From: Ostreococcus lucimarinus
Lineage: Eukaryota
Length of the DNA stretch: 64,000 nucleotides
Strand: one strand, 5' to 3'
Assembly: GCA_000092065.1 (NCBI GenBank)
Contig: CP000586.1
The notes below the pieces were generated by a model, which worked only from the letters and a program-made list of their open reading frames with translations, searched no databases and was not told the origin of the DNA. Each line of letters starts with the position of its first letter. The first letter of the stretch is position 1. Positions 14,181-56,063 of the stretch are shown one piece after another. Position numbers and translations under genes: made by a program.

Positions 14181-14218
14181 CGATTTATTGAATAAGTACG
14201 CGGGGAAATACTTACAGA

Positions 14219-16315: not shown

Positions 16316-16423
16316 CGAGACGCGCGCGCGTCGGGCGCGACCGCCTGTGCGGCGCGCACGCGTCGAGCGCGTGGTGCCGAGTTTCGAGATGCGGCCGCAT
16401 CCCGCCGCGCGCGCGGCGCGCGC

Positions 16424-17134
16424 ATGCCGCCGACGCTCTGGACGCACACCCTGTGCCCGTACGCGCATCGCGCGTCGCTCGCGCTGTGCGAAAAGGGCCT
16501 GCGACCGCGCGCGTTCGAGCGACACGTCGACCTGTCGGACAAGCCCAAAGATTTGTTTCGAGTGAACCCGCGCGGTTTAGTGCCCGCGCTCGAGTGCGAG
16601 GACGGTGAGATCGTCACGGAGAGCTCGAGGATCATCGTCGTCGTGGACGAGCGCTTCGGCGAGCGACGATCGCTGACGCGCGGGCCGAGGGATGAGATTT
16701 TGGAGTTTGCGCGCGACGCCGACGCGGCGGGCGGCGGCTTCGTGAGCTCGGGATTGAGCTTCGTCGGCGGTGGGTGGGGCATTCGTCGCGGCATGCCGCG
16801 TCAGGGGCAGATTGAAACGTTTCAGCGGAGCGTGCGCGCGCTCGACGATCGTCTACGGGGGAGCGAGGGAAATTATTTATTCGGCGCCGACGTGAGTCTC
16901 GCGGATATAAGCATTTGGCCGTTCGCCGAGCGGTTTCAGCTCGCGATGCGCGAGTTTCAAGGGTACGACATCGCGGAAGGCGCGGAGTACTTTGCCGCAT
17001 GGCTCACGGCGATGTCTGCGCGGGACAGCGTGCGGTCGTTGCGGCCTGATGACGAGGCTTTGTTGCGGTCGTGGCGGCGCACGATGCGGCTTGATTACTT
17101 CGATTACGAAACCGCTTCTCGGGAGTCACCCTGA
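16424..17134 (+). CDS. glutathione S-transferase (thioredoxin-fold, CPYA active site; omega/lambda/DHAR-like)
   Basis: MPPTLWTHTLCPYAHRASLALCEKGL carries the N-terminal GST CPx motif, and a GST C-terminal-like helical domain follows. The ORF track starts at 16271 with a GC-rich lead-in; the first sensible ATG is 16424. Confidence 0.65.
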   Translation: MPPTLWTHTLCPYAHRASLALCEKGLRPRAFERHVDLSDKPKDLFRVNPRGLVPALECEDGEIVTESSRIIVVVDERFGERRSLTRGPRDEILEFARDADAAGGGFVSSGLSFVGGGWGIRRGMPRQGQIETFQRSVRALDDRLRGSEGNYLFGADVSLADISIWPFAERFQLAMREFQGYDIAEGAEYFAAWLTAMSARDSVRSLRPDDEALLRSWRRTMRLDYFDYETASRESP

Positions 17135-39620: not shown

Positions 39621-41675
39621 ATGCTGATCGAGCGCGACGCGCGGTTGGGGATGCTGCGGTCGAAGTTGGATATGGTGGAGCGCGAGAATGAAAATTTGAA
39701 GCGAAACGGCGCGAGCGCGAGCGGCGACGGCGGCGGAGGGGCGCGGGGGGGGGCGGGGGAGGTGAATTACGGCGCGGTGGGGGGGGCGAATGGGGCGAAC
39801 GCTCGCGCGGCGCCGACGTCGACGAACGCGGCGAGCGTCGTGGCGAAGGCGGAGGTGCAGGATTTAAAGCAGCAGTTGGCGACGCTTCGATCGAAGTTGG
39901 CGTTTAAAGAGGAAGAGATCACCGAGGCGCGCAGGCTGGAGGACGACGCGCGAGCGAAGTTGCGCGCGGCGAATGACGAGCGCACGAAACTCGCCGCGGA
40001 AGTTCGCGCCGAACGCCGGGCGAGGGCGTCGGCGGGACAAAAGCGACCGTCGCGAGACGAGAGCCAAGAGACGGCGGCGAACAAGCGACAGAGAACGGGC
40101 GGCGCAAGCGGTGGGGATGTGTTAGGAAGCGAAGCGCGAGTTGGTGAACGTACGACTGGAATGAGCGCTGGTGGCAGTCATCGACGCGCGCGCGAAGGTT
40201 TGAGCGTGGCGTCGCCGCCCGAAACGCTCGCGTTGGCGCTTCCGATGGCGCCGCCCGACGTCGCGGCGACGCTGTACCAACGCGGCGTCAGCGGGTATTA
40301 CTCGAGCGATAACGTCTTCGCGCGGTTGATGAACGACGTTCCGCTCGATGTGAGTTCTTTTTTAGCGAAACCAAACGAATCATCGGTCGTGAGTGCGGAG
40401 TTGGTGAACCCCGTGCGCGCGGCGCTCATGAATTTGGCGACGAATCCGGATTCGACGGTGGCGCTCACGCGCGCGCTCGTCGAGTCCATCGTAGAAACAT
40501 CGAATTCCATCACGTCTTCGGCGCACTACGCGCACGTGACGTCGATATTGCGAATTCTTTCCGCGCTCGCGATGATTGATGGGCGAAGCCTGAGCATCGT
40601 GCTCGGCGCGTGCGGGGCGCAGAGAAATCAAACCGTCGCGACGGTCACAGCGCACGGGTCGCCGCCAGCGTCTTTGGCGGGGATTCCCGGTTTAGGCGGA
40701 GCGGGCATGGGTACGCTCGTCGCGCATCCGCGCGCACACAGCGGTCGTATCTTCGTTCCGGCGTCCATGAGTTCGACGAATCACGCGTCCGCGCCGACGC
40801 CAAAACCGACGAAGACGACGAAGAGCAGGTTGTCGGGGAGCCAAGGGGGAGAGGCACCGGAGGTGGCGCCGTTTTTGGAGACATTGATACAGTTACTCAC
40901 CGATGCGAAGTGTGATGGTCAGTGGCGCGTCGTCGACGCCGTGATCGTGGCGCTCATTCGATTCGCGAGCGGTGTGGGCGTGGAGAATGGCCGGGGCGCG
41001 TTTGGCGCCGTGGCGCAAAAGCACAGCGGCTTTGGATCGTGCCTGAAATCGATCGCCCCGAACAGCACACGGTTCTTGGCGCTCATGCTCATTCGAATGT
41101 TGGCGCCCACGCCCGAATTTCAGTCGTTCCTCTGTGAACCACTCGACGTCGAGCGAGGGATTGAAAAGCCGCCGACGCCTGAACGGCGCAAGCGAGCGAC
41201 GTTGTTCGCCGCGATTCTGAGTTGCCTCCGAGCAGATTGCGTGGAGGAAAACGGCTTGATCTTCGTCATTAAGTCCTCATACGTGGCGCACGCCACGCCT
41301 GAGCAGAGCGGCACGCTTCAAGAGGCGGCGCTCCGCGTGTTAAGAACGCTCGCCTTCATCGGCTGGTCCGAGTACGGCGCCGCCGCCGTCGCCGTCAACG
41401 CCCTCGACGTCCTCGCCGCCGTCGCCGTCGAAGAGTACGTCTCCCCGCTCCCCGTGGCGCACTCCAAATCATCAACAGCCCTTCACCAAGCCACCAGGCT
41501 CGTCCACGCCCTGCTCGACGAGCACTACGACGCCCATCTTCCTCGCCTCTTGGGCGCTCGCAAGAGTCAGCGCGTCATCGCCCGTCTCGCCCACCTGAGT
41601 TCCGCCAGCGGCGGCGGTCGCGAATCTCGCATGGCCGATTGGCTCGGCCGCATTTTACTCAAGGTGCGCGAGTGA
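39621..41675 (+). CDS. hypothetical protein: N-terminal coiled coil + C-terminal helical-repeat (ARM/HEAT-like) region
   Basis: The track start at 39483 is GTG and the first ATG is 39621 (MLIERDARLGMLRSKLDMVERENENLKRN). The protein is long, with a Gly-rich linker. No specific family can be assigned from sequence alone. Confidence 0.45.
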   Translation: MLIERDARLGMLRSKLDMVERENENLKRNGASASGDGGGGARGGAGEVNYGAVGGANGANARAAPTSTNAASVVAKAEVQDLKQQLATLRSKLAFKEEEITEARRLEDDARAKLRAANDERTKLAAEVRAERRARASAGQKRPSRDESQETAANKRQRTGGASGGDVLGSEARVGERTTGMSAGGSHRRAREGLSVASPPETLALALPMAPPDVAATLYQRGVSGYYSSDNVFARLMNDVPLDVSSFLAKPNESSVVSAELVNPVRAALMNLATNPDSTVALTRALVESIVETSNSITSSAHYAHVTSILRILSALAMIDGRSLSIVLGACGAQRNQTVATVTAHGSPPASLAGIPGLGGAGMGTLVAHPRAHSGRIFVPASMSSTNHASAPTPKPTKTTKSRLSGSQGGEAPEVAPFLETLIQLLTDAKCDGQWRVVDAVIVALIRFASGVGVENGRGAFGAVAQKHSGFGSCLKSIAPNSTRFLALMLIRMLAPTPEFQSFLCEPLDVERGIEKPPTPERRKRATLFAAILSCLRADCVEENGLIFVIKSSYVAHATPEQSGTLQEAALRVLRTLAFIGWSEYGAAAVAVNALDVLAAVAVEEYVSPLPVAHSKSSTALHQATRLVHALLDEHYDAHLPRLLGARKSQRVIARLAHLSSASGGGRESRMADWLGRILLKVRE

Positions 41676-41810: not shown

Positions 41811-44438
41811 ATGTCCGCGACCGACGCCGTGGACGAGCGCCAGCGAATCACGCGAAGCGCGCCCACCGCGCACCGCGTCGCCGTCGCCGTGATCGCCGCG
41901 CGCGTCGCGTTCGACCCGCTCGGATTCGGCGGTCGCCGCGCCGGCGTCTGGGAGGACGCCCTCGCGCGCGCGCCGACGCGCGTGGACGAAGACCCGGCGC
42001 GATGCGTGCGCGACGTGCGCGCGGCGCACGCGAAGTGCGCGGTCGACGCGCTCGCGGGCGGAGGGACGCGCGAACGGAGCGCGACGGAGACGACGCGGGC
42101 GCTGCGAGCGGCGCTGGAAGACGCGACGGCGAGCGAGACGAACGAAGACGCGACGGAACGCGCGGCGCGCGATGCGATCGTGCGATGGGGATTGGAGAGG
42201 TTTTTGGACGAATTGATGGAGGTGTCGGAGAGTTTGGACGATTTGGAGGCGTTTTTTGAGGACGCGCGATGCGTGGCGGCGAACGCGCGCGCGGAGGATT
42301 ACGAGGCGGAATACGGATTCGAGACGCGGGACGTCGAGGGGTGGACGCCGATCGGAATGTTTTTGAAGCGGTGTTATCTGGGGTTTAATTTATTGCCGTT
42401 TGAGGCGACGCTGACGTTGCTGGATGAGGTGCGGGCGTACGCGGAGGAGGTCGCGCGGGCAATCCAAGGCGACGAAAACGAGCCGCCGAGCGGGAGAACG
42501 TGCGCGGCGCCGGATGTGCTGACGACGCTCGTCACGCGCGCCGTCGAGGCGTACGATACGCACGCCGTAGATGCCGATCGAGTTTTACCGCCGGAAGCGC
42601 TCGAGGATCTGCGGGATTTGGCGCCCGAAGTGCCGACGCTGCACTACTTGCGTCACGCAGCGGCGTTGCGACGGAAAGATTACCCAGCGGCGGTGGAGCA
42701 TTTACATCGACACTTTGACATCAGCGGCGAGCACAACGAGTTGAGAGCGGATTTAGGAGGCGATAACGTTTTAGTGGGCGGGTTTGAAAGCGCCAACGCC
42801 GGGCGCGAGCGGTTGCAGACGGCGTTATTGGCGCTCGCGTCCACGCAGCTGGCGTTTTCGCACGCGGACGAGGCGACGTTTGCGATTTCCGAAGCCGTGC
42901 GCACGGCGCAGCAGAATGGTGACGAGGCGTCGTTGGCGCACGCTCTCGCGCTCACAACGGCATTGTTGTCGCGAGCACCTTTGGACGCGTCGAGTCATCG
43001 AGCGTCGCACCAAGACGAGCAACTGCCGACGCTGCTCCGACGATTGACGGCGCAAGCGGCGGAGCTGGCGTCGCCGCATCTCATCGCCTACGCCTCGCTC
43101 GCACTCACAAAGTACGCGATCGACAACCCGTCTCGGGCACTTGGGTCACATTCGCACGCGCCCGGCGGTGGTGCCTTGTCTCGCGCGGCTCGAGGTGGCG
43201 TAGACATCGTGACGACGCCGGCGCTCGCGACGCGAAACCTCGTCGACATCGAGTTAACGCGACACTTCACTCAACTCGTCTCCGCCACGCCCGCATCCGC
43301 GGCGTCGTTAGCATTAGCGCGTGAGTCATCGGGTGACGGCGTGCTCGGCGCTGGGAACGATTTGTACCCACCGCCCAAAGGTTTCGCGTCGACGCCGACG
43401 TGTGGGTACACGCTGAGCGCCACGGCGACGGCGCTCAGGAGCTTGACGGGTACTGCGTCTACGCTCGCTGCGGAGGGTTGGAGCACGTATGGGTGCAAAT
43501 ATATCGGTCGACTGTACGCTGTTCGTCAGCTTTACCTCGATCGCGAAGCCTCGGCGGATGAAACCGCGACGAGTTGCGCGACGCTCATCGCTGCGGCGAG
43601 CGAGTGCGAAGGCGTTGAAGCCGCCGACGAAGTGTGTCGACACGTCGAAGAAATATTCGGCAAAGATGGATGCGAAAACAAGTTTTCTGCCCTGGCGTTT
43701 TTAAGGCTACACTACGACCGCGCCGTAGGCGTTGGTTCGTACGCGACCGCGAGACGCGCCGCTCAGCGCATGCTCGCCGTCATCGACGCGAAGTCGGGAG
43801 CAGACAACGCGGCGTACTTTGAAGCGAGGCGGATGAACGCAAACCTGGACAGGCTGATGAAGAACTTCGATGATGCCCAAAAAGAGTTGAACGCACTCAT
43901 CGCTGACGCCGAGAAAGTGAAGGACGAGCACGCGGCGATGTGGGCCAAAATCTCACTCGCCGAGACGCATCTGAGCGCCGGCGCGCCAACGTTGGCGTTG
44001 ATGCGCGCTCTACCGCTCGAGCTCGAAGCGTCCGAAAGTGGTGTCGAGCCGATTCAAACGCGTGCCTTGTGCATAATGTGCGAGTCTTGGCTCGAGCTCG
44101 GAAACTCGCACGCGCAACTCGCGCGCGACGCGTTGGACGCGCGCGCGCTTGAGCTCCTATCGAGCGACGATTTGCGCTTGCAAGCCAGAGCGTACGTCGC
44201 GTGCGCGCGCGCGCTCATCGCCACGACCGTCGATTCTGGTCATGCATCGATCGCATCTCGCGTCATCGATGCCCTCGAGCGCGCTGCGGAGCGTTACGCC
44301 AAGCTCGGCGCCCATCGCGACGCGGCGATGACGTACGCTCGTCTCGCCAAGGCGCGCGCGCGATTCGACATGGATACCGTCGCTGCCGCCGCCAAGTGCC
44401 GCGAACACGCGAACGCCTCGTTATATTTCGCTACGTAG
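41811..44438 (+). CDS. TPR-containing protein, anaphase-promoting complex subunit 5 (APC5)-like
   Basis: An 875-aa helical-repeat protein. The segment ...YLRHAAALRRKDYPAAVEHLHRHFD resembles the APC5 ...LHRYFD region, and C-terminal TPR-like repeats are present. The assignment is tentative. Confidence 0.45.
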   Translation: MSATDAVDERQRITRSAPTAHRVAVAVIAARVAFDPLGFGGRRAGVWEDALARAPTRVDEDPARCVRDVRAAHAKCAVDALAGGGTRERSATETTRALRAALEDATASETNEDATERAARDAIVRWGLERFLDELMEVSESLDDLEAFFEDARCVAANARAEDYEAEYGFETRDVEGWTPIGMFLKRCYLGFNLLPFEATLTLLDEVRAYAEEVARAIQGDENEPPSGRTCAAPDVLTTLVTRAVEAYDTHAVDADRVLPPEALEDLRDLAPEVPTLHYLRHAAALRRKDYPAAVEHLHRHFDISGEHNELRADLGGDNVLVGGFESANAGRERLQTALLALASTQLAFSHADEATFAISEAVRTAQQNGDEASLAHALALTTALLSRAPLDASSHRASHQDEQLPTLLRRLTAQAAELASPHLIAYASLALTKYAIDNPSRALGSHSHAPGGGALSRAARGGVDIVTTPALATRNLVDIELTRHFTQLVSATPASAASLALARESSGDGVLGAGNDLYPPPKGFASTPTCGYTLSATATALRSLTGTASTLAAEGWSTYGCKYIGRLYAVRQLYLDREASADETATSCATLIAAASECEGVEAADEVCRHVEEIFGKDGCENKFSALAFLRLHYDRAVGVGSYATARRAAQRMLAVIDAKSGADNAAYFEARRMNANLDRLMKNFDDAQKELNALIADAEKVKDEHAAMWAKISLAETHLSAGAPTLALMRALPLELEASESGVEPIQTRALCIMCESWLELGNSHAQLARDALDARALELLSSDDLRLQARAYVACARALIATTVDSGHASIASRVIDALERAAERYAKLGAHRDAAMTYARLAKARARFDMDTVAAAAKCREHANASLYFAT

Positions 44439-44599
44439 CACCGTCTTCCACCCTGCGCTCGCTCACGATTGTAACATAACGAAATGATTTGTACGCTCGT
44501 CTTCGTCTTCGCGCTTCAACCCGACGCCTTACCAACCGTCGTCCCCCATCGTGCGACGCGCGTCCCCGACACGCCTCGCGCGCGCGCCGACGGGCCGCG

Positions 44600-44740
44600 A
44601 TGGGGGACGCCATCGTAGCGGCGACGCAGTTGAATGACGTTCGCGTCATCATCGCGTTGTTCATCGTCGGTGCGACGTCGATCGCGCTGACGCTTCACTG
44701 GGTGCTTCGAACGGTGTTGCCCTGGTTTATAGGACTCGCG
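44600..44740 (+). CDS. SABRE/KIP/BLTP2 (Fmp27/Hobbit)-like bridge lipid-transfer protein, exon 1 (N-terminal TM anchor)
   Basis: ATG at 44600. MGDAIVAATQLNDVRVIIALFIVGATSIALTLHWVLRTVLPWFIGLA is 47 codons and ends at a GTGCGT donor at 44741. It corresponds to the N-terminal TM helix of SABRE proteins. Confidence 0.55.
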
Positions 44741-44900
44741 GTGCGTCATTGCGCGGCTTCGACGCCTCGAAACGGTCGCGCGATTTCCTTTACGTCGATG
44801 CGACGCGCGAAAGGACGGACGGCGCACGATGGCGGCGGAAGATCGATGAATGATTACTCGACGTGGGACAGTCGACTGACGACGCGAATGGCGACGACAG
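44741..44900 (+). other. spliceosomal intron of the SABRE/BLTP2-like gene (160 nt; GTGCGT...ACTGAC...ACAG)
   Basis: Both exons are in phase 0. The branch motif lies 23 nt upstream of the AG. Confidence 0.55.
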
Positions 44901-47900
44901 GCGAGCTTCGTCAATCGAAGCGGGTTGCGATTGAGTATCGATAGTTTCGGGATCACGAGCGTGCGTGGAGTGAGCGTGAGCTTTAACAAGCCCGGCACGG
45001 CGCTGCGTAGGGTGCAGATTGCGGAGATTGCGTACGTGGGGAACGCGTCGACCATCGTGACGTGGTTGTTGAATTTCGCGTTGCGCAAGGCGAGCGGGAA
45101 GCATTTACGGGATGATTTGCCGCGCGTGGGTGAAAAGAATGGTAAAACCAGAAGTAAAAGTGATGATGGGTTCGCGGAGATGACGCCTCGTGGTAACGAT
45201 AGTCCGTCATCGGATGGAACGCCGGCGAGCGGACGAAGACGGTTCATACGCTTTGGCGTCGGATCGCTCAAGGCGGCGTTCGTGGTGTCGGGCGTAGAAA
45301 TTACGACGCGGAGTAAAGCCGACATAAATACGGAGGATGGGTTGCAAAAGCAGTCGTCTGATTTAGGTCGCGCAAAAATGACGAACACTAAAAAGAAGGC
45401 GATGACGCGCGGCAAGTGGAGATTGATGAAGGGCATCGCGTCCTTTGTCGACATCACGGTCGTATCGCTGACGGTGCGCGAAGAAGATGATGATGACGTC
45501 GACATGTTGTTTTGTGATAAACTCACGTTTGAAGCGTCTGGCAAGGCCGGAGCTTCGCTGAAATTCCTCATCACGGCACGTATGCTGCGAGGCAAGGATG
45601 GTTGGAGCATGACAGACACCAACGTGAACCTCGTCGCGGAGTTTGATTCCGAGACGAAAACTATCGTACCTGTGCACGCGGGATTGAGTGGTTCGACCTT
45701 GTCTCTCGTGAAGCGTGTTGGCGAGCGAGCGAAGAAGATCGAGACGAAAACAGATTTGGCGCCGATTACCGTCAAACAACAGCAAGGTCCGCACAAGGCT
45801 GTGAGGGGTCTACTCAAAGTGCCGAGGAAATGCAAGATAGAATTTAAACGCGTCGTGATGGAGAATAAGAACCAGGAAGCACCGTTGACTGGCGTGATGA
45901 CGCATATGCAATTCTCGGTCGAGAGAGTGAGCGCGTCCAAAAAGGGATTTCGTCTCTTTCGAAAGCAACAGCAAGTCGTCTCGCCGTTTGCCTCCACGGC
46001 GTTCGAGGCGGACGCGTGGGCAGAGGTGAATATGTCCGTGGCGGATGCAAAATTAGTGCATGGAAAGCATCAGACATTAGCTCTCATCAACGCGCCGAGT
46101 GCCTCGGTATTCTTGTCGCTTTCAGAGAAAGCACTCGGCGACGGCGGCAAATTGCCCGCCACCGCAACGTTTACGGTGGATTCGTGCGATTTTAGGCACC
46201 ATGCCGATGCGGCAGATTTAGTCGCTGCGTTAAAGGCGCAGAAAACGAAATCAAGAAACGGCTCCACTAAGTCGACGAACACAAAAAAGAACTCGGCGCC
46301 GTGGGACGTCGTCGATGCGCAGATGATGTGCAAAACGTCGCTATGCGCGAGAATGTACGACGAGCACGGGGCAACATCGTGTCAGTTTCTCACCGAGCAG
46401 ATTCGTGGTCGATATGGAAATTTAGTCGATGAAGGGACGTGTATGCTAGTTAGTTCGAGCGCGTCAGACAAGCGCGGCGTGTGCACGATGTCACGCGTAC
46501 AAGTGACGGTTCCCGGTTACCACCCCGTCGTGCAGATTGAAGCCATCAGCGTTGCGCTATCCGAAGCTGCCGGAAACGCGGTTGAGTTGTCGGAAACTAC
46601 CATCGATTTGAACATGAACGAAGCAGGTGAACTCGCAAAGAAGATTGATGCCGTCGCGAAGCGCGCCAAGGCAACCATGGCGAGCGCAAAAGGCGATTCG
46701 TCTGACAAGGCGACGTCTTCAAATAAGGTGAAGAAATCTACACGCGTCATCTTGGTCGACACAGCGATGCGTGCTCGATGCACGATGACGCCTTACTCGA
46801 CGTTCGGTGAGATACCGCAAAACTCGCGCGGCGATGAGCCTGTAGAGTGCGCGCTCGACATAAGTTGTCCGCTCGCAGAGATGTCGCAGCCGGAGGCAAA
46901 CTTAACGAGAATGGCGGCGGGTGGTTTCACAGTCTCTATGTACGACACCATTCAAAGACCCGCCAAAGCCGAAGAGGCGAAGAAAGATTCGCGGTGGGTC
47001 GGACGAGTCAATTACGAAGAAGTCGCGGTAGAGAACAACCGCGTGATGCTAGTCGGAAGTCTCGATGTTGAGTACAAACAAGGCGCCAACAAGCGCGCGG
47101 CAGTATCCGTGGAAGGCGTCGAATTTGATTGGGAACCGGATGCGCATTTTCTCGCACTAGAAATTTCAAACCTGGCAAAGGCTGCAAAGCCAGCAAAGAT
47201 GTCGACTGACGGTACGCAAAACGCCTCGAAGGATCAAACAAAATTGGATCTTTCGTTTGACGTGCGCAAAGTCAGCGGCTCGTTCTTTGTCACGCCGGGC
47301 GCGTGCGCGCAAGTATCATTTGGACTTATGGACGCGCGCCCACTCGAAAAAACGTGCTGCGTGAGAGATGTGACTTTTGGTATGAACGGATACACGATAA
47401 CGGAGTTAGAATTGATCTCCGTAACTCAAGACGAGTGCGAACGCACGTTGCCTCATGTCGCAGCGATCACACACGAAGACGCCGAAGACATCGCCAGGCG
47501 CCGCAAGTTTCAAATTGTGGTTGAGAAGGCAAAGCTCATGCTTCCCGCAAACTTAGACCTCGGCGACGCCATGGTAGCCATGATTATAGGCGAAGCGGTA
47601 TTCTCCGACGTCGTGAAAACGACTGGGAAGCGCGCAAAGAAGGAGCGAATTTCGTTGGCTGCCAATTTACCCGCCTGCGCCGAATCGTCTCCGTCAAAAC
47701 CGGCGACTGAAATCAATGTCAAGGTCAGCAGTATCGAAATTGAAGTCGAAGACTCGAATGATTTGGAGCGTTTTATGCGTGCAAAGCAAGCTGCATTGGG
47801 ATCTTGCATCGCGGCCGCGGAGTTTACGTCTTCCACTGAAGAGGCGATGCGAAGCATCACCACGACGTATCTCCAGCATAAGGAATTCTTAGCAAACGGC

Positions 47901-50900
47901 GGTGGCTCCGCGTTGCACATGGATATAGGCAGCGTCACCTCTACGGCAGTGTGGGGAGGTGGTAAAGGCGATGGTGATGAGCTCACAGCGAAAGCAGGCG
48001 CGCACGTACGTCGTGTGGATGCTCCGTATAGCGATTCTGTGTCTTTGCAGATGCAAAACGTTTTGACGATGCACACAAGCGTAACCGAAATGCGCGTCTG
48101 CGTGGCGGATTTGACCGCACGTCCTATTTTCATGTGTAGTGAAGCCACGATCGCAGGGACATTTGTGCAGGCTAGACAATACGCCCCGCGCATATTGACG
48201 GGACAAGTTGCCCTCCCTGTCGGACGAAGACGATGGGCGAAGACAAACGGACCCGACACGCCTTCGCGACCGACGGCGATGTGGTACACAGATGCGACTT
48301 TTGACATCAAAGAAGCTGATATATTTGTGGCGACGTGCATTGAGCCGTATTTGTTCAATGTGTCGCGAGAGCTCACGACGAGACTCGTCCTTCCACGCCT
48401 GCACAAGCACATTCCAGGAGGCGGAGGTGGACGTCCGCCGACGAAGGAATACGATCGAAACAATCCCAGACCGCCGAGCATGCCCTGGTGGGATATTTTG
48501 AGAAGTCAGTGGCGCGGATTAATGCGTATAACGATGATTCAGTCCGGTGCGAAGGTGGATAGTCAAGGACAGATTGAGCATCTCGGCGCGCACGGGGGAG
48601 ACTCGTTTGCGAGCGAGCTAGAGATTTTCGCCGACATGTGGGAGTTCGACATGAAGCCGCGCAACGTGGTCATTCGTAGCGCGAACTTCACGATATCAAG
48701 AATTCAAGATGATGAAGAGTGTACCGAAGCTTCGACGCCACGCGCGGATGAACCATCGCCGAAGCATAAGTTGGTCATCTTCCCGGTCATGTGCGTCAAG
48801 GCAGATTACGAATTCAAAGCCCTCCTCGATGGCGGCGATGGTCATCGTACGCACTACAGACACGACTCAACGACTGGAAAGGAGCTTTTCTCCAGAGATT
48901 TGACGCGCTCAAGTGCTTGTTTTGTGAATCTCGATGTCGATCTGGCGTCCATGGAAGAGTTCGTCACGAAAATGGTCAACGCCGCGACCATGGATCGCTT
49001 CGTCGAATACGTGAGAAATCTTACCACTGACGTGCCATCGTTCGAACACCAGGGCCACTATTCGAATCCGACCATAGCGCTGACACCAGATGACGTTGAG
49101 TTCATGAAACAATGGGAACATGGGATGAAGAAGCCAATGGTCGCGCTGCGGTCGATCTGGAACTTGCGACCGTGGGGCGCCCCGCGACGGGTAAAACACC
49201 CAGAATCGATAAGTTTGGTTGACTTGTTCGCAAGCATCGACACTGTCATCACCTCGAGCGTCATTCATGTGGTGAACGCTTCGAGCGACGAGACAGCTAA
49301 TGCGTACGGGGCGTGTTTCTGTCTCAAATCGGTGCATTGCGTCGCGAAAAAAGCGCCTCGGACCAAGGTGGAATTCACCCTGCGAGCAGATTCGTCGCAA
49401 TTCCACGTGCCTGAGCGTGACGGCAGTCTCGAACGTAAGGGATCGAGTCCACGTCGCCTCGCTAATCTTCGCGCTGGATCTATTACCAACAGACTGAACT
49501 TTGCAGAGCTCGACGACGTCGTCAAAGAGATGTTGCAAGGAAGCGCCAAGAGCCCGTCACAGGCAGATGATGGATCGGCTTCGCGCCCGACGTCCACGGA
49601 TCCAACGTTGGTATTAGACACGAAAAGACTCGAGATTACTCAGCGCAATGAAGATTCAGTGGCCAGCCAGGGCATTCAGATCGAAGTTGACGCTCCTCGG
49701 ATCTTAATTGAAGCCGAACAGCGGAACGCTATCCTCGGCTGGATCAACGCCATTTGGACGGCGGCGCAGACGGAAAGACGCGAGCCGACTTGGACCGAGC
49801 TCAATCGCATCCTAAAGTCAGCGGATAAACTGTCGGGAGTGAGTCGACGTCGCCGTGAATTAGACGATATCATGGGCGATGGACCAAGTTTGCACGCGCT
49901 AAGTGCGGAAGAGACGCTCGAAAAGAATTACGAATCACCGAAACGTGCGACGGAAGCTGTTGTGCTCTTCGTCATTCAAATCACCGCTCCGCAAATCAAT
50001 TTTAAGGGCAAAGATGCCGCTGGTCGAATGTTACTCGCAGCCGAAGGCGGACTTGTGGTTGGTAGACGAATGGACGACGGCGGTTCGACGGGTCGTCGTC
50101 TCGTCACGGTATCTTTACAACAAGTTCAAGCGTACGTGGCGCCGACGAACGTCGACTTAAACGCCGGTGTGCAGTGGTTGCGGGAAAATCATTCTTCGGT
50201 GGATGGCATACATACTTCTTTGGTTCGTGACGACGTATTCGAAAGTGGCGACGGTCGCAAAGAATCAGGTTCGCTCTTGCGACGCATTTTCGCTCCAGGT
50301 TCGATGGTTTTTGAGCACGCAAACGCCGTCACAGCGACGCAAAGTCGCATAACCGACGCCGAGTTGTACGCGTACAACGAGCCGACGGAGGCTGATGTTC
50401 AGGCTTTCGGTAAGCGCACGGCGAGCGAGACCAAAGGGGAAGCGGTGAGCCAATTTTCAATGCGTTCTCCCGAAATCGTCGCGGAAATGAATTCGAGCCA
50501 GTACGTTGTTTTGATCGACGTCATGGCGAGCCTATTCTTGACACCAGCGGCTTTGGAGCGTCCTCGACCGAGCTTTCAGGCTTCAAAGGTTTTGATGAGT
50601 CGTGATCGAACGTTGAGTGACACGGTTGCGCTTGAATCTTCAGCTATCGTCGCGAAACCGATGATGAAGTTGATGGCCGCTCGCTGGGCGGTGGAGAGTA
50701 TGGAGAAGAATTATCGCCGCGCGGTCGCTCTGGCGCCGAGCGAAAAGCAGAAAGTCCTTCGTGAAATCGATGTCCTTTGGTCCGCTGCGCAGAAGGCTGA
50801 GTTGCGCGTCCTCGCTGCGGTGCATCAAGCCGAAGAGAACGATAGGCTCTATCGGCGGCACTCCGCGATTCGATTAAGTCTCGAAATCGAACACGCGGCT

Positions 50901-52160
50901 TGGACTTTGTGGCAGGGTGGGAGTCCTTTCATCTCCGCTCAGCTCTCGCGACTGTCGCTTTCGCGCGAACGCCAGGTTGACTCTTCTGGGATGCTGCGAT
51001 TTAAGCTGCACGGTTTAAGTATGGTGTCGCTCGATGAAGGCTGCGTCGATCAGATGTTTTCTCGCTGGATTCCACCGGGAAGCGTGCACGAATCACGCGC
51101 GCGTAACGACGCGCCGTTGATTGACTTTTTCTCCATCCGCGCGGGATCGGCGCCGGAGAAACCGGTATACGACCATTTGGAGCTGAGTGTGCAACCGTTC
51201 GAGGTGGACATCAAGCACTCGCAGTACAAAATGATTTACCAATATCTCTTTCCAATGACGAAGTCCAGCGATCACGACGCGTTTGAGAATGTTTACAGGC
51301 GTCCGGCGCTCGCCAAGAATGCGGAGATGTCGCCGCGCGAGAGCTTGATTCGGGCGCAATCTATAAACGCAAAGGGTGTGCATCTGACGCCGCTTGAATT
51401 GCCGTCGGAGATGTCGGCGTCAAAGCATCGGCGACGATGGCGTTGGAACGAAGAAAAAGATGAAGTTCTCGAAGAGTTTGAAGACGTGCATGCGAAAAAG
51501 GGCGAAAAGGGTATTGATCACAAAACCGTACTTTTGCGCTATTTCAGAATTCATCCTCTGCACATGGAGATGACGTACGAAGGCAAATCACGCGGGTTCA
51601 GAGACTTGCAACTCGGCGTCGACGCCTTTGCGTACGAAAACTTTTCCGGTCGCTGGCGTGACTTGACGTCAGAGCTTAAAAACCACATCGTATGGAGCGT
51701 GTTGAAATCGCTCGTCGGCTTTCGAGGAAAGTTTGTCGAGAGCAAGATCGATGACACGCAGTCCATCTTCATGCGCGTCGCGGAGCGGTTGAAGAAAACT
51801 GCCAACTTGCTCCCGAAGCCCAAACCAGAAACTTCCAGCGGCGCCGAGCACGATTCCGAGTCGGAGACGGCCGTCGACGACCGAATTAAGTCGCAGACGT
51901 CCCAGGCCGAACTCTTTCGCACCGGATGGAACGACGTCGACGTCGATATCGAAGTACCGCGCGGCGATGGTCGAAAAGCGCCGTCGCGACGCTTCTCGAG
52001 GAAGAAGAAGAAACCTCGCCGCATCCGCCCAATCAAAAACACCAAGAAATTCCTCGCCACGGTCGGCATTGGCTCCTACACGCCGAGCGGTGCCGAGGGA
52101 ACGCCTTCTTTGCGCAGCCGCACCGAAGTCATCGACGCGTGGTCCACCCCAAACTTGTAA
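44901..52160 (+). CDS. SABRE/KIP/BLTP2 (Fmp27/Hobbit)-like bridge lipid-transfer protein, exon 2 (about 2,419 aa)
   Basis: The giant ORF has TTG as its track start at 44925. The frame is open back to an ACAG| acceptor at 44900, with an ACTGAC branch 23 nt upstream. The N-terminal region aligns with plant SABRE (ASVEFRVGGWNCVRDVVVKF ~ LSIDSFGITSVRGVSVSF; RGKWMVLANMARFLSVSVTDLVV ~ RGKWRLMKGIASFVDITVVSLTV). The size and architecture fit BLTP2. Confidence 0.85.
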   Translation, partial: ASFVNRSGLRLSIDSFGITSVRGVSVSFNKPGTALRRVQIAEIAYVGNASTIVTWLLNFALRKASGKHLRDDLPRVGEKNGKTRSKSDDGFAEMTPRGNDSPSSDGTPASGRRRFIRFGVGSLKAAFVVSGVEITTRSKADINTEDGLQKQSSDLGRAKMTNTKKKAMTRGKWRLMKGIASFVDITVVSLTVREEDDDDVDMLFCDKLTFEASGKAGASLKFLITARMLRGKDGWSMTDTNVNLVAEFDSETKTIVPVHAGLSGSTLSLVKRVGERAKKIETKTDLAPITVKQQQGPHKAVRGLLKVPRKCKIEFKRVVMENKNQEAPLTGVMTHMQFSVERVSASKKGFRLFRKQQQVVSPFASTAFEADAWAEVNMSVADAKLVHGKHQTLALINAPSASVFLSLSEKALGDGGKLPATATFTVDSCDFRHHADAADLVAALKAQKTKSRNGSTKSTNTKKNSAPWDVVDAQMMCKTSLCARMYDEHGATSCQFLTEQIRGRYGNLVDEGTCMLVSSSASDKRGVCTMSRVQVTVPGYHPVVQIEAISVALSEAAGNAVELSETTIDLNMNEAGELAKKIDAVAKRAKATMASAKGDSSDKATSSNKVKKSTRVILVDTAMRARCTMTPYSTFGEIPQNSRGDEPVECALDISCPLAEMSQPEANLTRMAAGGFTVSMYDTIQRPAKAEEAKKDSRWVGRVNYEEVAVENNRVMLVGSLDVEYKQGANKRAAVSVEGVEFDWEPDAHFLALEISNLAKAAKPAKMSTDGTQNASKDQTKLDLSFDVRKVSGSFFVTPGACAQVSFGLMDARPLEKTCCVRDVTFGMNGYTITELELISVTQDECERTLPHVAAITHEDAEDIARRRKFQIVVEKAKLMLPANLDLGDAMVAMIIGEAVFSDVVKTTGKRAKKERISLAANLPACAESSPSKPATEINVKVSSIEIEVEDSNDLERFMRAKQAALGSCIAAAEFTSSTEEAMRSITTTYLQHKEFLANGGGSALHMDIGSVTSTAVWGGGKGDGDELTAKAGAHVRRVDAPYSDSVSLQMQNVLTMHTSVTEMRVCVADLTARPIFMCSEATIAGTFVQARQYAPRILTGQVALPVGRRRWAKTNGPDTPSRPTAMWYTDATFDIKEADIFVATCIEPYLFNVSRELTTRLVLPRLHKHIPGGGGGRPPTKEYDRNNPRPPSMPWWDILRSQWRGLMRITMIQSGAKVDSQGQIEHLGAHGGDSFASELEIFADMWEFDMKPRNVVIRSANFTISRIQDDEECTEASTPRADEPSPKHKLVIFPVMCVKADYEFKALLDGGDGHRTHYRHDSTTGKELFSRDLTRSSACFVNLDVDLASMEEFVTKMVNAATMDRFVEYVRNLTTDVPSFEHQGHYSNPTIALTPDDVEFMKQWEHGMKKPMVALRSIWNLRPWGAPRRVKHPESISLVDLFASIDTVITSSVIHVVNASSDETANAYGACFCLKSVHCVAKKAPRTKVEFTLRADSSQFHVPERDGSLERKGSSPRRLANLRAGSITNRLNFAELDDVVKEMLQGSAKSPSQADDGSASRPTSTDPTLVLDTKRLEITQRNEDSVASQGIQIEVDAPRILIEAEQRNAILGWINAIWTAAQTERREPTWTELNRILKSADKLSGVSRRRRELDDIMGDGPSLHALSAEETLEKNYESPKRATEAVVLFVIQITAPQINFKGKDAAGRMLLAAEGGLVVGRRMDDGGSTGRRLVTVSLQQVQAYVAPTNVDLNAGVQWLRENHSSVDGIHTSLVRDDVFESGDGRKESGSLLRRIFAPGSMVFEHANAVTATQSRITDAELYAYNEPTEADVQAFGKRTASETKGEAVSQFSMRSPEIVAEMNSSQYVVLIDVMASLFLTPAALERPRPSFQASKVLMSRDRTLSDTVALESSAIVAKPMMKLMAARWAVESMEKNYRRAVALAPSEKQKVLREIDVLWSAAQKAELRVLAAVHQAEENDRLYRRHSAIRLSLEIEHAAWTLWQGGSPFISAQLSRLSLSRERQVDSSGMLRFKLHGLSMVSLDEGCVDQMFSRWIPPGSVHESRARNDAPLIDFFSIRAGSAPEKPVYDHLELSVQPFEVDIKHSQYKMIYQYLFPMTKSSDHDAFENVYRRPALAKNAEMSPRESLIRAQSINAKGVHLTPLELPSEMSASKHRRRWRWNEEKDEVLEEFEDVHAKKGEKGIDHKTVLLRYFRIHPLHMEMTYEGKSRGFRDLQLGVDAFAYENFSGRWRDLTSELKNHIVWSVLKSLVGFRGKFVESKIDDTQSIFMRVAERLKKTANLLPKPKPETSSGAEHDSESETAVDDRIKSQTSQAELFRTGWNDVDVDIEVPRGDGRKAPSRRFSRKKKKPRRIRPIKNTKKFLATVGIGSYTPSGAEGTPSLRSRTEVIDAWSTPNL

Positions 52161-52310
52161 CGTTGTAATACTACTCGCGGCGTCAAACTGCAGAAAGGGG
52201 AACGAGCACGAAAAAGAGACGATTTGTCTCTCCGAGTGCGCAATCGCTCGCCCGGCGTCACTTCGCGCCTCGCGCGCGCGGCGAACGCGCATCCCGAGAC
52301 GAAGCACACG

Positions 52311-53456
52311 ATGCCCACGTCACCGCTCGCCGATCGCGCGCCGCTGAGCGACGCCGACGCGAACGCGAACGCGAACGATGATGGATTCATGAGCCACGCG
52401 CCGCGCGCCATCAAATTACGAAACGTCGCGACGCACCACCCGGTGCGTAAACTCGGCCCGAGCACGGGCGTCGAGGCGATCTTGGGCGGTGATGAAAACG
52501 CGCCGTTCGCGCAGAACGCGCAGAGGAAGTGGAACGAGAACCGGGCGAGACAGCACGCGGGGGCGAATCTGTTCGGCGCGGCGTCGCCGGCGAAGCGAGA
52601 CGCGCGAGAGGAAAGAATCAAAGATGCGAATGGGAAACTCGCGGACGTCGGCGCGAGGTACGACATCGTGAGCGCGAAGACGTTAACGCTGCAAGAGTTG
52701 AGACAGGCGTGCCGGGCGCGAGGGGTGAATCCTGGGGGAAGTAAGGATGCGCTGTGCGAACGGTTGGAGGACGCGATAAAGGCGGGCGCGCCGCCGCTGA
52801 CGTTAGATTCGAGACCGACGACGCAACGAAGTGCGATTGGAGCGGGTGCGCGATTTACGAGTAAGGCGTGCGAAGTGCGGGCGCCGTCGATGGCGCAGCG
52901 CGAACTGCGCGAGTCGCAACAGATTTGGCGAAGCCAGCAAAACGGACACGACATCTTCGGGACGTCCTTCGGCGACGCGGAGACAAAGAAGCGGAAAGTC
53001 GTCGAGGGACCGAAGACGACGTTTTCATTCGAAGCCATCACGCAGTCGTACGTCGACGAGGGCGCTGTCGCGACGAAGGAGGCCGACGTCGCGCCCAAGC
53101 GTGCGAAGCGCGAAGCGCCGGCTTCCACGAATCCCATCACCGACGCCTTCGTTGAAGCGCCCAAGGCGGAGGTCGAGACGATGGCGGACCATCGCAAATC
53201 GGCGTGGTCGAATTTCCAAGGCGCGGGTTTGTTCTCCGAACACTGGACGACCGCGGAAGACGAAGCAGCGGCCGACGAGGCGCTCGTGAAATCATCCACC
53301 ACCGAAACCGGCGCGTGGAAGACGCTCGAAGAAGAGCAAGACGAGCAGGACGAAGACGAGGCCGAGGCCATCGCCGAGCGCGAGGCCGACGAAGCCGTCG
53401 CGGCGGCAGAGCGCGAGTTAGCCGAAGAGCTCGCTCGCGAAGAGCAATCCGACTAG
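52311..53456 (+). CDS. SAP-domain protein with acidic C-terminus
   Basis: SAP motif LTLQELRQACRARGVNPGGSKDALCERLEDAIK. The track start at 52224 is TTG; the first ATG is 52311. Confidence 0.55.
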   Translation: MPTSPLADRAPLSDADANANANDDGFMSHAPRAIKLRNVATHHPVRKLGPSTGVEAILGGDENAPFAQNAQRKWNENRARQHAGANLFGAASPAKRDAREERIKDANGKLADVGARYDIVSAKTLTLQELRQACRARGVNPGGSKDALCERLEDAIKAGAPPLTLDSRPTTQRSAIGAGARFTSKACEVRAPSMAQRELRESQQIWRSQQNGHDIFGTSFGDAETKKRKVVEGPKTTFSFEAITQSYVDEGAVATKEADVAPKRAKREAPASTNPITDAFVEAPKAEVETMADHRKSAWSNFQGAGLFSEHWTTAEDEAAADEALVKSSTTETGAWKTLEEEQDEQDEDEAEAIAEREADEAVAAAERELAEELAREEQSD

Positions 53457-55136: not shown

Positions 55137-56063
55137 ATGGCGCGGAAGAAGACAAAGAAGCGTCCGGTCATCGCGCGCGACGACGTCGAGTCGCGCGCGA
55201 CGCTCAAAAGCGACGATGAAACGGAAGATTACGACGACGCGGATTCGTCGCCCGCGCGCGTTCCGAACGGCGTGGACGCCTCGCGCGTCGCGTTCGGCGC
55301 GCGGGCGTCGCCGTCGCGCGTCCGAGGCGAAGACGAAGGACCGGTGAAGCTGTGCGTCACGGTGCGGCCGCAGGTCGTCGTCGACGACGACGAAGCGTCG
55401 ATGCGGATAGATATTTTAGAAGAGGTCGTGGAGGATTTGAAGCTCGAGCTCGACGGGTACCGAGCGGCGGCGCGGGAGTTGGCGATCGAGATCGAGGCGA
55501 AGGATAGAGCGCTCGAGGCGAGCGCGAGGGACACGCGACACGAAAAGACGGAGGGACGCGCGCTGGCCGTGCGCGAGGCCACGGCGAGATTGACGGATAG
55601 ATTGGAAAAGGCGGAGAAAGCGGTCGAGCGCGAACGCGGGGATGGCGATCGAGGACGCAAAGCTTTGGAGACGCTGAAGAAAATGGAAGCCGAACTCGAG
55701 CGGCGGATGTGCGACCAAGACGAGGCGTTCGAGCTCAAGTGGGCGCAGCGCGTGGCGGAGGCTAACGCCGATCGAGACGCGTTTCGTGGTAAACTCGCCA
55801 AGCTGGAGGGCGAGATGGAGACGGTTAAAATCTCGGAAGAACGCGCTCGGAGCGAATTGGTTTCGGCGAAACGTCAAATCGACGAGTTACAGCTCCGTCT
55901 AGCCCGAGCGCTTTCCGCGCCCGCACCGCGCGGAAACGAGCGCACGGACGATCCACGCGACGTCGTCGACGACGACGCGTCGAAACCTCGTCGTGGTTTC
56001 TTTTCCTTCATCACGGGCGTGCCCGAGGCGCCGAAATCGGACCGTCCCGTCGTCGACGCCTAG
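55137..56063 (+). CDS. hypothetical coiled-coil protein
   Basis: ATG at 55137. The N-terminus is basic (MARKKTKKRP), and coiled-coil heptads run through the middle. No family recognised. Confidence 0.4.
   Translation: MARKKTKKRPVIARDDVESRATLKSDDETEDYDDADSSPARVPNGVDASRVAFGARASPSRVRGEDEGPVKLCVTVRPQVVVDDDEASMRIDILEEVVEDLKLELDGYRAAARELAIEIEAKDRALEASARDTRHEKTEGRALAVREATARLTDRLEKAEKAVERERGDGDRGRKALETLKKMEAELERRMCDQDEAFELKWAQRVAEANADRDAFRGKLAKLEGEMETVKISEERARSELVSAKRQIDELQLRLARALSAPAPRGNERTDDPRDVVDDDASKPRRGFFSFITGVPEAPKSDRPVVDA

What the first reader, a model, noticed from the sequence alone, without database searches (positions are those of the whole stretch)
44600..52160. Giant (about 2,460 aa) SABRE/BLTP2-like bridge lipid-transfer protein with TM first exon
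The 7.2-kb ORF dominates this part of the window. Its N-terminal region aligns motif by motif with plant SABRE/KIP (RGKW...SVTDLVV block). The TM anchor lies in a separate 141-nt exon (44600-44740) joined through a 160-nt intron. The rest of the protein is non-repetitive and presumably forms the long hydrophobic groove of BLTP family members. This is the largest gene here and a good target for structure prediction.
Basis: partly seen in the sequence, partly recalled or inferred. Interest (0 to 1): 0.5.

Follow-up and report, generated by a model that had tools for sequence, protein, structure and literature searches.

The report
Ostreococcus BLTP2/SABRE lipid-bridge gene, already annotated

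Summary
Joining 44600-44740 to 44901-52160 gives a 2,466-aa protein identical to RefSeq XP_001418322.1 ("predicted protein", Ostreococcus lucimarinus CCE9901).

- **Family.** Pfam PF10344 (Hobbit/FMP27/BLTP2) matches residues 1725-2345 at E=1e-41. A profile-profile alignment to plant SABRE is collinear from the transmembrane helix to the C-terminus (E=8.5e-67). The O. tauri ortholog is already named "FMP27, C-terminal" and "aberrant pollen transmission 1".
- **Intron.** The 160-nt intron sits at the same phase-0 position in nine Ostreococcus lineages, with conserved splice signals. A transcriptome-derived peptide from Ostreococcus sp. RCC789 shows the spliced junction.
- **Selection.** dN/dS is 0.24 against the closest relative.

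The most likely function is an ER-anchored lipid-transfer rod with a polybasic C-terminal tail. That function is inferred from family membership, not tested here. The result is sound but ordinary and already known, so interest is low.

The parts
44600..44740 (+). Exon 1 (141 nt, 47 codons): start codon plus the N-terminal membrane anchor
   Evidence: It holds the first in-frame ATG after a stop. A homologous exon is present in 8 other lineages. It matches the first 47 residues of XP_001418322.1 exactly.
44639..44707 (+). Codons for the single predicted transmembrane helix (residues 14-36, VRVIIALFIVGATSIALTLHWVL)
   Evidence: This is the highest hydropathy in the protein, KD 2.27 against at most 1.64 elsewhere. 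The same is true in 7 of the 8 lineages compared (all but L007).
44741..44900 (+). Intron (160 nt, phase 0): donor GTGCGT, branch-like CTGAC at 44876-44880, acceptor CAG
   Evidence: Read-through meets a stop and the length is not a multiple of 3. Donor GT[GA]CG occurs at the same position in all lineages, and CTGAC/CTAAC precedes the acceptor in all but L008. The closest relative has a 1-nt indel in the intron but none in the exons. The junction is seen in a transcript-derived ortholog peptide.
44901..52160 (+). Exon 2 (7,260 nt including the TAA stop at 52158-52160): residues 48-2466, the rod-forming body of the protein
   Evidence: The reading frame is open throughout. It is collinear with orthologs of 2,454-2,490 aa. 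dN/dS is 0.24 against the closest relative.
45411..45479 (+).
   Evidence: It is conserved in all Ostreococcus orthologs. It pairs with SABRE 'NIARFLSVSITDLVLK' in profile alignments, weakly on its own (E=0.16) but inside the end-to-end alignment.
47109..47159 (+). 'VEFDWEPDAHFLAL' motif (residues 784-800), shared with plant SABRE 'ISITWEPDMCLSF'
   Evidence: E792, P793 and D794 are invariant in the 11-sequence alignment that includes two plant proteins. The motif is aligned in hhalign.
47760..47897 (+). Predicted antiparallel helix pair 1 (residues about 1001-1046)
   Evidence: AF2 model helices 954-975 and 979-999, with a numbering offset of +47. The local pLDDT is low.
49932..51794 (+). Region matched by Pfam PF10344 Hobbit/FMP27/BLTP2 (residues 1725-2345), the former Apt1/FMP27 C-terminal part
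   Evidence: E=1e-41, profile positions 1736-2348 of 2372. BLASTP to SABRE gives 3e-23 and 2e-13.
50622..50861 (+). Predicted long antiparallel helix pair 2 (residues about 1955-2034)
   Evidence: AF2 model helices 806-838 and 844-885, with a numbering offset of +1149, pLDDT about 70-80.
51528..51716 (+). Last beta-meander plus terminal helix (residues 2257-2319, ...GRWRDLTSELKNHIVWSVLKSLV), the most conserved block of the family
   Evidence: BLASTP gives 36% identity to SABRE, E=2e-13. W2299, H2309, W2312, L2315, K2316 and S2317 are invariant between algae and plants. The model shows four strands followed by a helix.
51972..52052 (+). Polybasic C-terminal tail (residues 2405-2431, 15 K/R in 27), containing the conserved motif KPRRxRPxKNxKKF
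   Evidence: The motif is present in all 8 orthologs.

Best explanation
The locus is the single-copy Ostreococcus lucimarinus ortholog of BLTP2 (plant SABRE/KIP/APT1, fly Hobbit, yeast Fmp27/Hob1). It is a two-exon gene.

**Shown here**
- The exact gene model, and its identity to the RefSeq protein.
- Family membership by profile search.
- End-to-end collinearity with plant SABRE.
- A conserved N-terminal transmembrane helix encoded by a separate first exon.
- A conserved intron.
- Purifying selection.
- A fold for the N-terminal half that best matches solved bridge-like lipid-transfer proteins.

**Inferred from what is published for the family**
- The transmembrane helix anchors the protein in the ER. 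The more positive C-terminal flank (R37) puts the body in the cytosol.
- Residues about 48-2320 form a rod of repeating beta-groove units whose hydrophobic face lets glycerophospholipids slide between membranes.
- The far end, with its terminal helix and conserved polybasic tail, docks on an acidic-lipid-rich partner membrane, most likely the plasma membrane. This allows bulk ER-to-PM lipid flow, as reported for phosphatidylethanolamine in yeast and human cells.
For: **Gene model**
- The spliced product is identical to XP_001418322.1.

**Family**
- PF10344 is the only Pfam family found, at E=1e-41.
- hhalign to SABRE: residues 1122-2340 at E=4e-42 directly, and 21-2340 at E=8.5e-67 with intermediate sequences added.
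- Distant hits of the N-terminal profile are themselves PF10344 proteins, including ones from Volvox and Gonium.
- The O. tauri ortholog is named 'FMP27, C-terminal' and 'aberrant pollen transmission 1'.

**TM helix and intron**
- Both are conserved in 9 lineages, and a transcript-derived peptide shows the junction.

**Fold**
- Next come the Vps13 and Atg2 N-terminal lipid-transfer domains.
- The C-terminal model's top hits are again 9cap_A and Vps13.
- Predicted strands alternate hydrophobic and polar residues more than within-strand shuffles do (2.17 against 1.64 +/- 0.16; 0 of 1,000 shuffles reach it).

**Selection and tail**
- dN/dS is 0.24.
- The polybasic tail is conserved.

**Family biology from papers**
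- The N-terminal TMH anchors Hobbit in the ER, and the groove is built of RBG domains (PMC7613979).
- The basic C-terminal region is needed for PM contact (PMC12406788).
- BLTP2 and Fmp27 move PE to the PM (PMC12270902).
Against: - No experiment or transcript from O. lucimarinus itself was available.
- Both structure models are of low to moderate confidence (mean pLDDT 52 and 44, from alignments of 7 and 9 sequences). Groove continuity and lining were not measured.
- TM-scores to 9cap_A are low (0.30).
- Residues 1-1121 have no significant direct sequence match to any named family member: Pfam gives nothing, and the direct hhalign pieces score E=0.025-0.16.
- The PM adaptor used in animals and fungi (Bbo/Hoi1/FAM102) is reported absent from green plants (PMC13104988). 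The partner membrane and docking mode in this alga are therefore open.
Confidence: 0.9

Rival explanations
1. The family is the same, but the bridge is different. In this wall-less, about 1-micrometre alga with one chloroplast, the protein might link the ER to a membrane other than the plasma membrane (chloroplast envelope, Golgi or endosome-like compartment, or the division site). Its fast-evolving N-terminal half could reflect lineage-specific partners.
For: - The N-terminal profile finds only 39 proteins among 1.84 billion representatives, so this half is unusually divergent.
- The PM adaptor Bbo/Hoi1/FAM102 is reported missing in green plants, and the plant 'handle' helices are arranged differently (PMC13104988).
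- Plant SABRE has been tied to ER domains at the cell plate (reference list of PMC13104988).
Against: - The conserved polybasic tail is the type of element that mediates PM phosphoinositide binding in animal BLTP2 (PMC12406788).
- Nothing in the sequence points to a plastid or other specific target.
- No localisation data exist.
Confidence: 0.12
2. It belongs to a different bridge-like lipid-transfer family (BLTP1/Tweek/Csf1, VPS13, ATG2 or BLTP3/SHIP164) and only resembles BLTP2.
For: The best solved-structure match is BLTP1 (LPD-3), followed by Vps13 and Atg2.
Against: - The sequence search of PDB chains with the whole protein found nothing, so no BLTP2-family chain was available to compete in the structure searches.
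- Pfam finds only PF10344, with no Chorein_N, VPS13, ATG2 or Csf1/FSA families.
- The protein is collinear end to end with SABRE.
- Its length of 2,466 aa fits BLTP2 rather than BLTP1 (about 5,000 aa, PMC7613979).
- It has an N-terminal TMH, which VPS13, ATG2 and SHIP164 lack (PMC7613979).
Confidence: 0.02
3. Exon 1 is not part of this gene (a separate small ORF, or the tail of the upstream gene), and the real protein starts inside the big ORF without a membrane anchor.
For: - Prokaryote-style gene callers start the protein at an internal GTG (P0001, 2,394 aa).
- No O. lucimarinus transcript was examined.
Against: - The upstream ANAPC5 gene ends with its own stop at 44438.
- The exon-1 hydrophobic peptide, donor, branch site and acceptor are conserved in 9 lineages, while the intron varies in length (139-196 nt), frame and indels.
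- The spliced peptide is seen in a transcriptome of a relative, and the two-exon model on L006 is 96.6% identical to it with no large gaps.
- An N-terminal TMH is a family feature (PMC7613979).
Confidence: 0.03

Closest known systems
Ostreococcus tauri XP_022839307.1 'FMP27, C-terminal' / OUS48261.1 'aberrant pollen transmission 1' (2,481 aa)
   Same: - It is the direct ortholog, at 56% identity over the full length.
- Gene neighbours are the same: ANAPC5 upstream and a SAP-domain gene downstream.
- It has the same two-exon structure, with the TM helix in exon 1.
   Different: Only sequence divergence and a 179-nt rather than 160-nt intron. That protein already carries a family name, whereas the O. 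lucimarinus one is labelled 'predicted protein'.
Plant SABRE / KIP / maize APT1 (for example Gossypium raimondii SABRE, 2,609 aa)
   Same: - N-terminal TM helix.
- Similar length.
- Collinear profile alignment 21-2340 against 6-2467 (E=8.5e-67).
- Shared WEPD, PWWD, VAPTxVDxxAGVQWL and terminal W..L....K.H..W.VLKS motifs.
   Different: - Only 18-23% identity.
- The N-terminal 1,100 residues are not detectably similar without intermediate sequences.
- Plants have several paralogs, whereas only one cluster was found for this alga.
Animal BLTP2 (KIAA0100) / Drosophila Hobbit / yeast Fmp27-Hob1
   Same: - Same Pfam family.
- ER-anchoring TMH, rod of RBG domains, and a basic C-terminal region (PMC7613979, PMC12406788).
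   Different: - No direct pairwise hits were obtained in the searches run here.
- The adaptor system (Bbo/Hoi1/FAM102), which binds a two-helix 'handle', is reported absent from green plants (PMC13104988). Whether the alga's helix pairs play that role is unknown.
C. elegans LPD-3 (BLTP1), PDB 9cap
   Different: It is a different family with 9% identity and a much longer protein. The match shows the fold class, not orthology.

Membership tests
BLTP2 / Hobbit / SABRE / Fmp27 (Pfam PF10344) | Family profile match above the curated threshold | tested here: met
   PF10344 at E=1e-41, 142.7 bits against a cut-off of 24.5, covering residues 1725-2345. No other family was found.
BLTP2 / Hobbit / SABRE / Fmp27 (Pfam PF10344) | Single N-terminal transmembrane helix as ER anchor (PMC7613979) | tested here: met
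   One hydrophobic segment at residues 14-36 (KD 2.27), which is the strongest in the protein and in 7 of the 8 lineages compared (L007 is the exception). ER localisation itself was not testable.
BLTP2 / Hobbit / SABRE / Fmp27 (Pfam PF10344) | Full-length collinear homology to named members, not just a shared C-terminal domain | tested here: met
   hhalign 21-2340 against SABRE 6-2467, E=8.5e-67, 2,050 columns, with intermediate algal sequences added. Without them only 1122-2340 is significant.
BLTP2 / Hobbit / SABRE / Fmp27 (Pfam PF10344) | Rod built of repeating beta-groove (RBG) units along the whole length | tested here: inconclusive
   The N-terminal model shows about six or seven units of roughly five strands plus a helix, by my own count on a moderate model. 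Its top hits are BLTP1, Vps13 and Atg2, but pLDDT is 52. The C-terminal model has pLDDT 44 and weaker hits to the same structures.
BLTP2 / Hobbit / SABRE / Fmp27 (Pfam PF10344) | Hydrophobic lining of the groove | tested here: inconclusive
   Only an indirect sequence test was possible. Predicted strands alternate hydrophobic and polar residues more than shuffles do (z=3.4). Model coordinates could not be analysed.
BLTP2 / Hobbit / SABRE / Fmp27 (Pfam PF10344) | [quoted passage not shown] | tested here: inconclusive
   Two helix pairs are predicted, at about residues 1001-1046 and 1955-2034. The first has low confidence.
BLTP2 / Hobbit / SABRE / Fmp27 (Pfam PF10344) | Basic C-terminal region used for partner-membrane binding (PMC12406788) | tested here: met
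   Residues 2405-2431 carry 15 K/R in 27, and the motif KPRRxRPxKNxKKF is conserved in 8 orthologs. Binding itself was not testable.
BLTP2 / Hobbit / SABRE / Fmp27 (Pfam PF10344) | Lipid binding and transfer at ER contact sites | not testable with these tools
   This needs biochemistry and imaging.
BLTP1 / Tweek / Csf1 | Much longer protein (about 5,000 aa) with the TMH followed by an amphipathic helix and its own family profiles (PMC7613979) | tested here: not met
   The protein is 2,466 aa and has no BLTP1/Csf1 Pfam hit. The structural similarity to LPD-3 is at fold level only, with 9% identity.
VPS13 / ATG2 / BLTP3 (SHIP164) | Chorein_N start without a TM helix, and family-specific profiles (PMC7613979) | tested here: not met
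   A TM helix is present, and there are no Chorein_N, VPS13 or ATG2 Pfam hits.

The most novel reading that the evidence does not exclude
The unusually fast-evolving N-terminal half, and the reported lack of the Bbo/Hoi1/FAM102 adaptor in the green lineage, might mean that Ostreococcus BLTP2 docks by a lineage-specific mechanism. It could even bridge the ER to a membrane other than the plasma membrane, for example the chloroplast envelope or the division site. One of the smallest free-living eukaryotes would then be a minimal model for how a BLTP chooses its target.
Probability: 0.08. Interest if true: 0.5.

Novelty: already known. Interest (0 to 1): 0.12.

Why it matters
It matters little as a discovery. 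The gene model is already in RefSeq, the precomputed Pfam assignment already says Hobbit/BLTP2, and the O. tauri ortholog is already named after FMP27/APT1.

It has modest value in three ways:
- It shows that a minimal picoeukaryote keeps a single BLTP2 under purifying selection, which fits a core cellular role.
- It documents a conserved 'TM helix in its own first exon' layout across Ostreococcus. Prokaryote-style gene callers on metagenomes systematically miss this exon: most database copies start 70-120 residues too late, and one reads through the intron.
- It shows that the N-terminal half of the algal proteins is too divergent for Pfam to detect.

Tried and rejected
- A second homologous-protein run, with an 11-sequence alignment, returned the same 13 proteins and added nothing.
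- Pfam scans of residues 1-494 and 495-1731 on their own gave no family hit.
- A sequence search of PDB chains with the whole protein found nothing.
- The Foldseek afdb50 library was unavailable, so the models could not be compared with AlphaFold models of SABRE or BLTP2 themselves.
- An exact look-up of the 2,466-aa protein in the contig index found no record, so the chromosome record and its annotated exons could not be displayed.
- Tandem Repeats Finder and Rfam over 44000-53000 found nothing.
- A pseudogene or non-coding reading was rejected: the ORF is an intact 7.2 kb, orthologs run at 45-91% identity, and dN/dS is 0.24.
- The antisense ORFs overlapping the gene (for example 44516-45997 on the minus strand, 493 aa) were rejected as by-products of high GC. 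They were not examined further.
- The C-terminal AF2 model was too poor (pLDDT 44) to use for more than secondary-structure layout.
Full report
**What is in the sequence**

The + strand carries an uninterrupted reading frame from 44901 to the TAA stop at 52158-52160. It is listed as ORF 44925-52160 from its first TTG. Upstream, the ATG at 44600 is the first ATG in its frame after a stop. It opens a 141-nt segment that ends at 44740, directly before GTGCGT.

The stretch 44741-44900 is 160 nt. It contains CTGAC at 44876-44880 and ends CAG. Reading through it meets a stop, and its length is not a multiple of three.

Joining 44600-44740 to 44901-52160 gives a 7,401-nt CDS and a 2,466-aa protein. 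The only strongly hydrophobic segment is residues 14-36, with a Kyte-Doolittle 19-mer mean of 2.27 against at most 1.64 anywhere else.

**Where the window comes from, and what is already annotated**

The spliced protein is identical, residue for residue, to XP_001418322.1 / ABO96615.1, a "predicted protein" of Ostreococcus lucimarinus CCE9901.

The O. tauri ortholog (56% identity, 2,481 aa) is deposited under the names "FMP27, C-terminal" and "aberrant pollen transmission 1". All related database proteins carry a precomputed PF10344 assignment.

**Family membership**

- **Pfam.** hmmscan of the whole protein finds one family only, PF10344 Hobbit/FMP27/BLTP2. The match has E=1e-41 and 142.7 bits (cut-off 24.5). 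It covers residues 1725-2345, aligned to profile positions 1736-2348 of 2372.
- **BLASTP.** Comparison with Gossypium SABRE gives three collinear blocks: 1737-2174 (3e-23), 2255-2334 (2e-13) and 960-1253 (3e-7).
- **N-terminal two thirds.** These are much more divergent. Scanned alone, residues 1-494 and 495-1731 hit no Pfam family.
- **Library search.** A profile of residues 48-1200 from seven Ostreococcus lineages finds only 39 proteins at E<=0.001 among 1.84 billion cluster representatives.
- **What the distant hits are.** The long distant hits are PF10344 proteins themselves. P0137, P0141 and P0142 score E=1e-35 to 1e-41 at their C-termini, and P0163 scores 6e-10. Sub-threshold matches in P0164 and P0154 map to central profile positions of about 1100-1270. 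P0164 and P0168 are proteins of Volvox reticuliferus and Gonium pectorale respectively.
- **Profile-profile, direct.** Eight spliced Ostreococcus proteins against two plant SABREs give 1122-2340 to 1152-2467 at E=4e-42.
- **Profile-profile, with intermediates.** After four intermediate Mamiellophyceae-like sequences are added, a single alignment runs from residue 21 to 2340 against SABRE 6-2467, with 2,050 columns and E=8.5e-67. In it IASFVDITVVSL pairs with IARFLSVSITDL.

**The transmembrane first exon and the intron**

I fetched the orthologous loci of eight other lineages: L005-L011 at 45-56% protein identity and L012 at 91%.

- **Gene order.** ANAPC5 lies upstream and a SAP-domain gene downstream wherever the fetched contig reaches that far.
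- **Exon 1.** Every locus has an ATG-initiated exon of 138-156 nt encoding a hydrophobic helix. It ends immediately before GT[GA]CG.
- **Intron signals.** The introns are 139-196 nt long. A CTGAC or CTAAC sits about 20-35 nt before the acceptor in all lineages but L008, and all introns end in a YAG or AAG acceptor. Exon 2 begins with (A/V)(S/T)....
- **Intron variability.** Intron lengths fall in all three residue classes modulo 3. Seven of the eight compared contain in-frame stops.
- **Spliced products.** Splicing yields 2,454-2,490-aa proteins in every case.
- **Closest relative (L012).** Exon 1 is 94% identical and the intron 91%. The intron carries a 1-nt indel while the exons have none.
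- **Transcript evidence.** P0119 is a peptide from the MMETSP0930 transcriptome of Ostreococcus sp. RCC789. It carries the spliced junction ...VLPRSLAII|ASFGNSSG. It is 96.6% identical, with gaps of only 1, 1 and 3 residues, to my two-exon model on locus L006. This also argues against further introns.
- **Upstream gene.** The ANAPC5 gene ends with its own stop at 44438.

No transcript of O. lucimarinus itself was available. The junction in this species therefore rests on comparative evidence and on the RefSeq model.

**Fold**

*N-terminal model.* AlphaFold2 on residues 48-1200 with a 7-sequence alignment gave a moderate model. Mean pLDDT is 52 and pTM 0.46, with model residues about 470-880 mostly at pLDDT 60-87. 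It consists of long beta-strands in meanders separated by helices. By my own count that is about six or seven units of roughly five strands plus a helix.

| Search of solved structures with the N-terminal model | Best hit | Next hits |
|---|---|---|
| Foldseek | LPD-3/BLTP1 complex, 9cap_A, E=1.9e-12, 1,171 columns | Vps13 N-terminal fragment 6cbc (6e-4); Atg2 N-terminal domain 6a9e/6a9j (about 1e-3); bacterial LptD |

*C-terminal model.* Residues 1150-2345 with 9 sequences gave a poor model (pLDDT 44). It shows a long antiparallel helix pair (residues about 1955-2034), further strands, and a final four-strand meander followed by a helix in the most conserved block (2257-2319). Its top Foldseek hits are again 9cap_A (1.4e-3) and Vps13 6cbc (2.9e-3).

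*Strand pattern.* Predicted strands alternate hydrophobic and polar residues more than within-strand shuffles do: 2.17 against 1.64 +/- 0.16, with 0 of 1,000 shuffles reaching the observed value. This fits one hydrophobic sheet face but is not specific to a groove.

*Limits.* I could not measure the groove directly. I also could not compare the models with AlphaFold models of SABRE or BLTP2, because that library was unavailable.

**How it most likely works**

Published work on the family provides the following:
- Hobbit/BLTP2 proteins start with a transmembrane helix that anchors them in the ER. Their body is a rod of repeating beta-groove domains with a hydrophobic inner face, and antiparallel helix pairs project from the rod (PMC7613979).
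- BLTP2 and Fmp27 raise plasma-membrane phosphatidylethanolamine and transport PE in vivo (PMC12270902).

The alga's protein has matching sequence features:
- the N-terminal helix;
- two predicted helix pairs;
- the conserved terminal helix;
- a tail with 15 K/R in 27 residues, containing the motif KPRRxRPxKNxKKF in all eight orthologs.

I therefore infer an ER-anchored lipid bridge whose far end docks on an acidic membrane, probably the plasma membrane. The anchor, the docking and the lipid flow are all inference. The adaptor used in animals and fungi is reported absent from green plants (PMC13104988), so the docking partner in this alga is the least certain step.

The gene is under purifying selection. 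dN/dS is 0.24 overall against L012, ranging from 0.12-0.13 in the middle to 0.30-0.38 at the ends.

**Comparison with known families, and verdict**

It is a member of BLTP2/SABRE/Hobbit/Fmp27. It is not BLTP1, VPS13, ATG2 or BLTP3: it has none of their profiles, the wrong length for BLTP1, and a transmembrane start that the other three lack (PMC7613979).

Nothing found departs from the family plan. The only mildly notable points are the strong divergence of the N-terminal half and the systematic truncation of this gene by prokaryote-style gene callers in metagenome data.

A full-text search for papers mentioning Ostreococcus together with BLTP2/SABRE terms listed none. The gene is nevertheless already modelled and assigned to the family in public databases.

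Noticed in passing
window 44600-52160 compared with neighbouring genes: The giant gene is clearly less GC-rich than its neighbours. It has GC 0.54 and third-position GC 0.61, against third-position GC of 0.73-0.85 for flanking genes. This might reflect weak codon bias in a lowly expressed gene.
   Followed up: no
window 14219-16468 (- strand): A 749-aa PIF1-like helicase ORF (Pfam PF05970, 7e-27). It has similarly low third-position GC (0.62) and lies in the lowest-GC stretch of the window (14001-16000, GC 0.52). It could be a mobile-element helicase or simply another weakly biased gene.
   Followed up: partly
L009 688-985 (ortholog locus); proteins P0007/P0078: In one Ostreococcus-like lineage the homologous intron is 141 nt, in frame and free of stops. 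Metagenome gene callers therefore read through it and report a 2,532-aa protein with 47 spurious residues. In the other lineages the same callers drop exon 1 and start 70-120 residues late.
   Followed up: yes
window 41811-44438, 52311-53456 and loci L005-L011: The gene order ANAPC5 - BLTP2 - SAP-domain gene is conserved across Ostreococcus-like lineages at 45-56% protein identity, wherever the fetched contigs extend that far.
   Followed up: partly
window 39621-41675 (+) and 55137-56063 (+): Two conserved ORFs of 684 aa and 308 aa flank the region. Neither has any Pfam family at E<=0.001.
   Followed up: no
window 44516-45997 (- strand): A 493-aa antisense ORF overlaps exon 1, the intron and the start of exon 2. 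It is most likely a by-product of the high GC content and was not tested.
   Followed up: no
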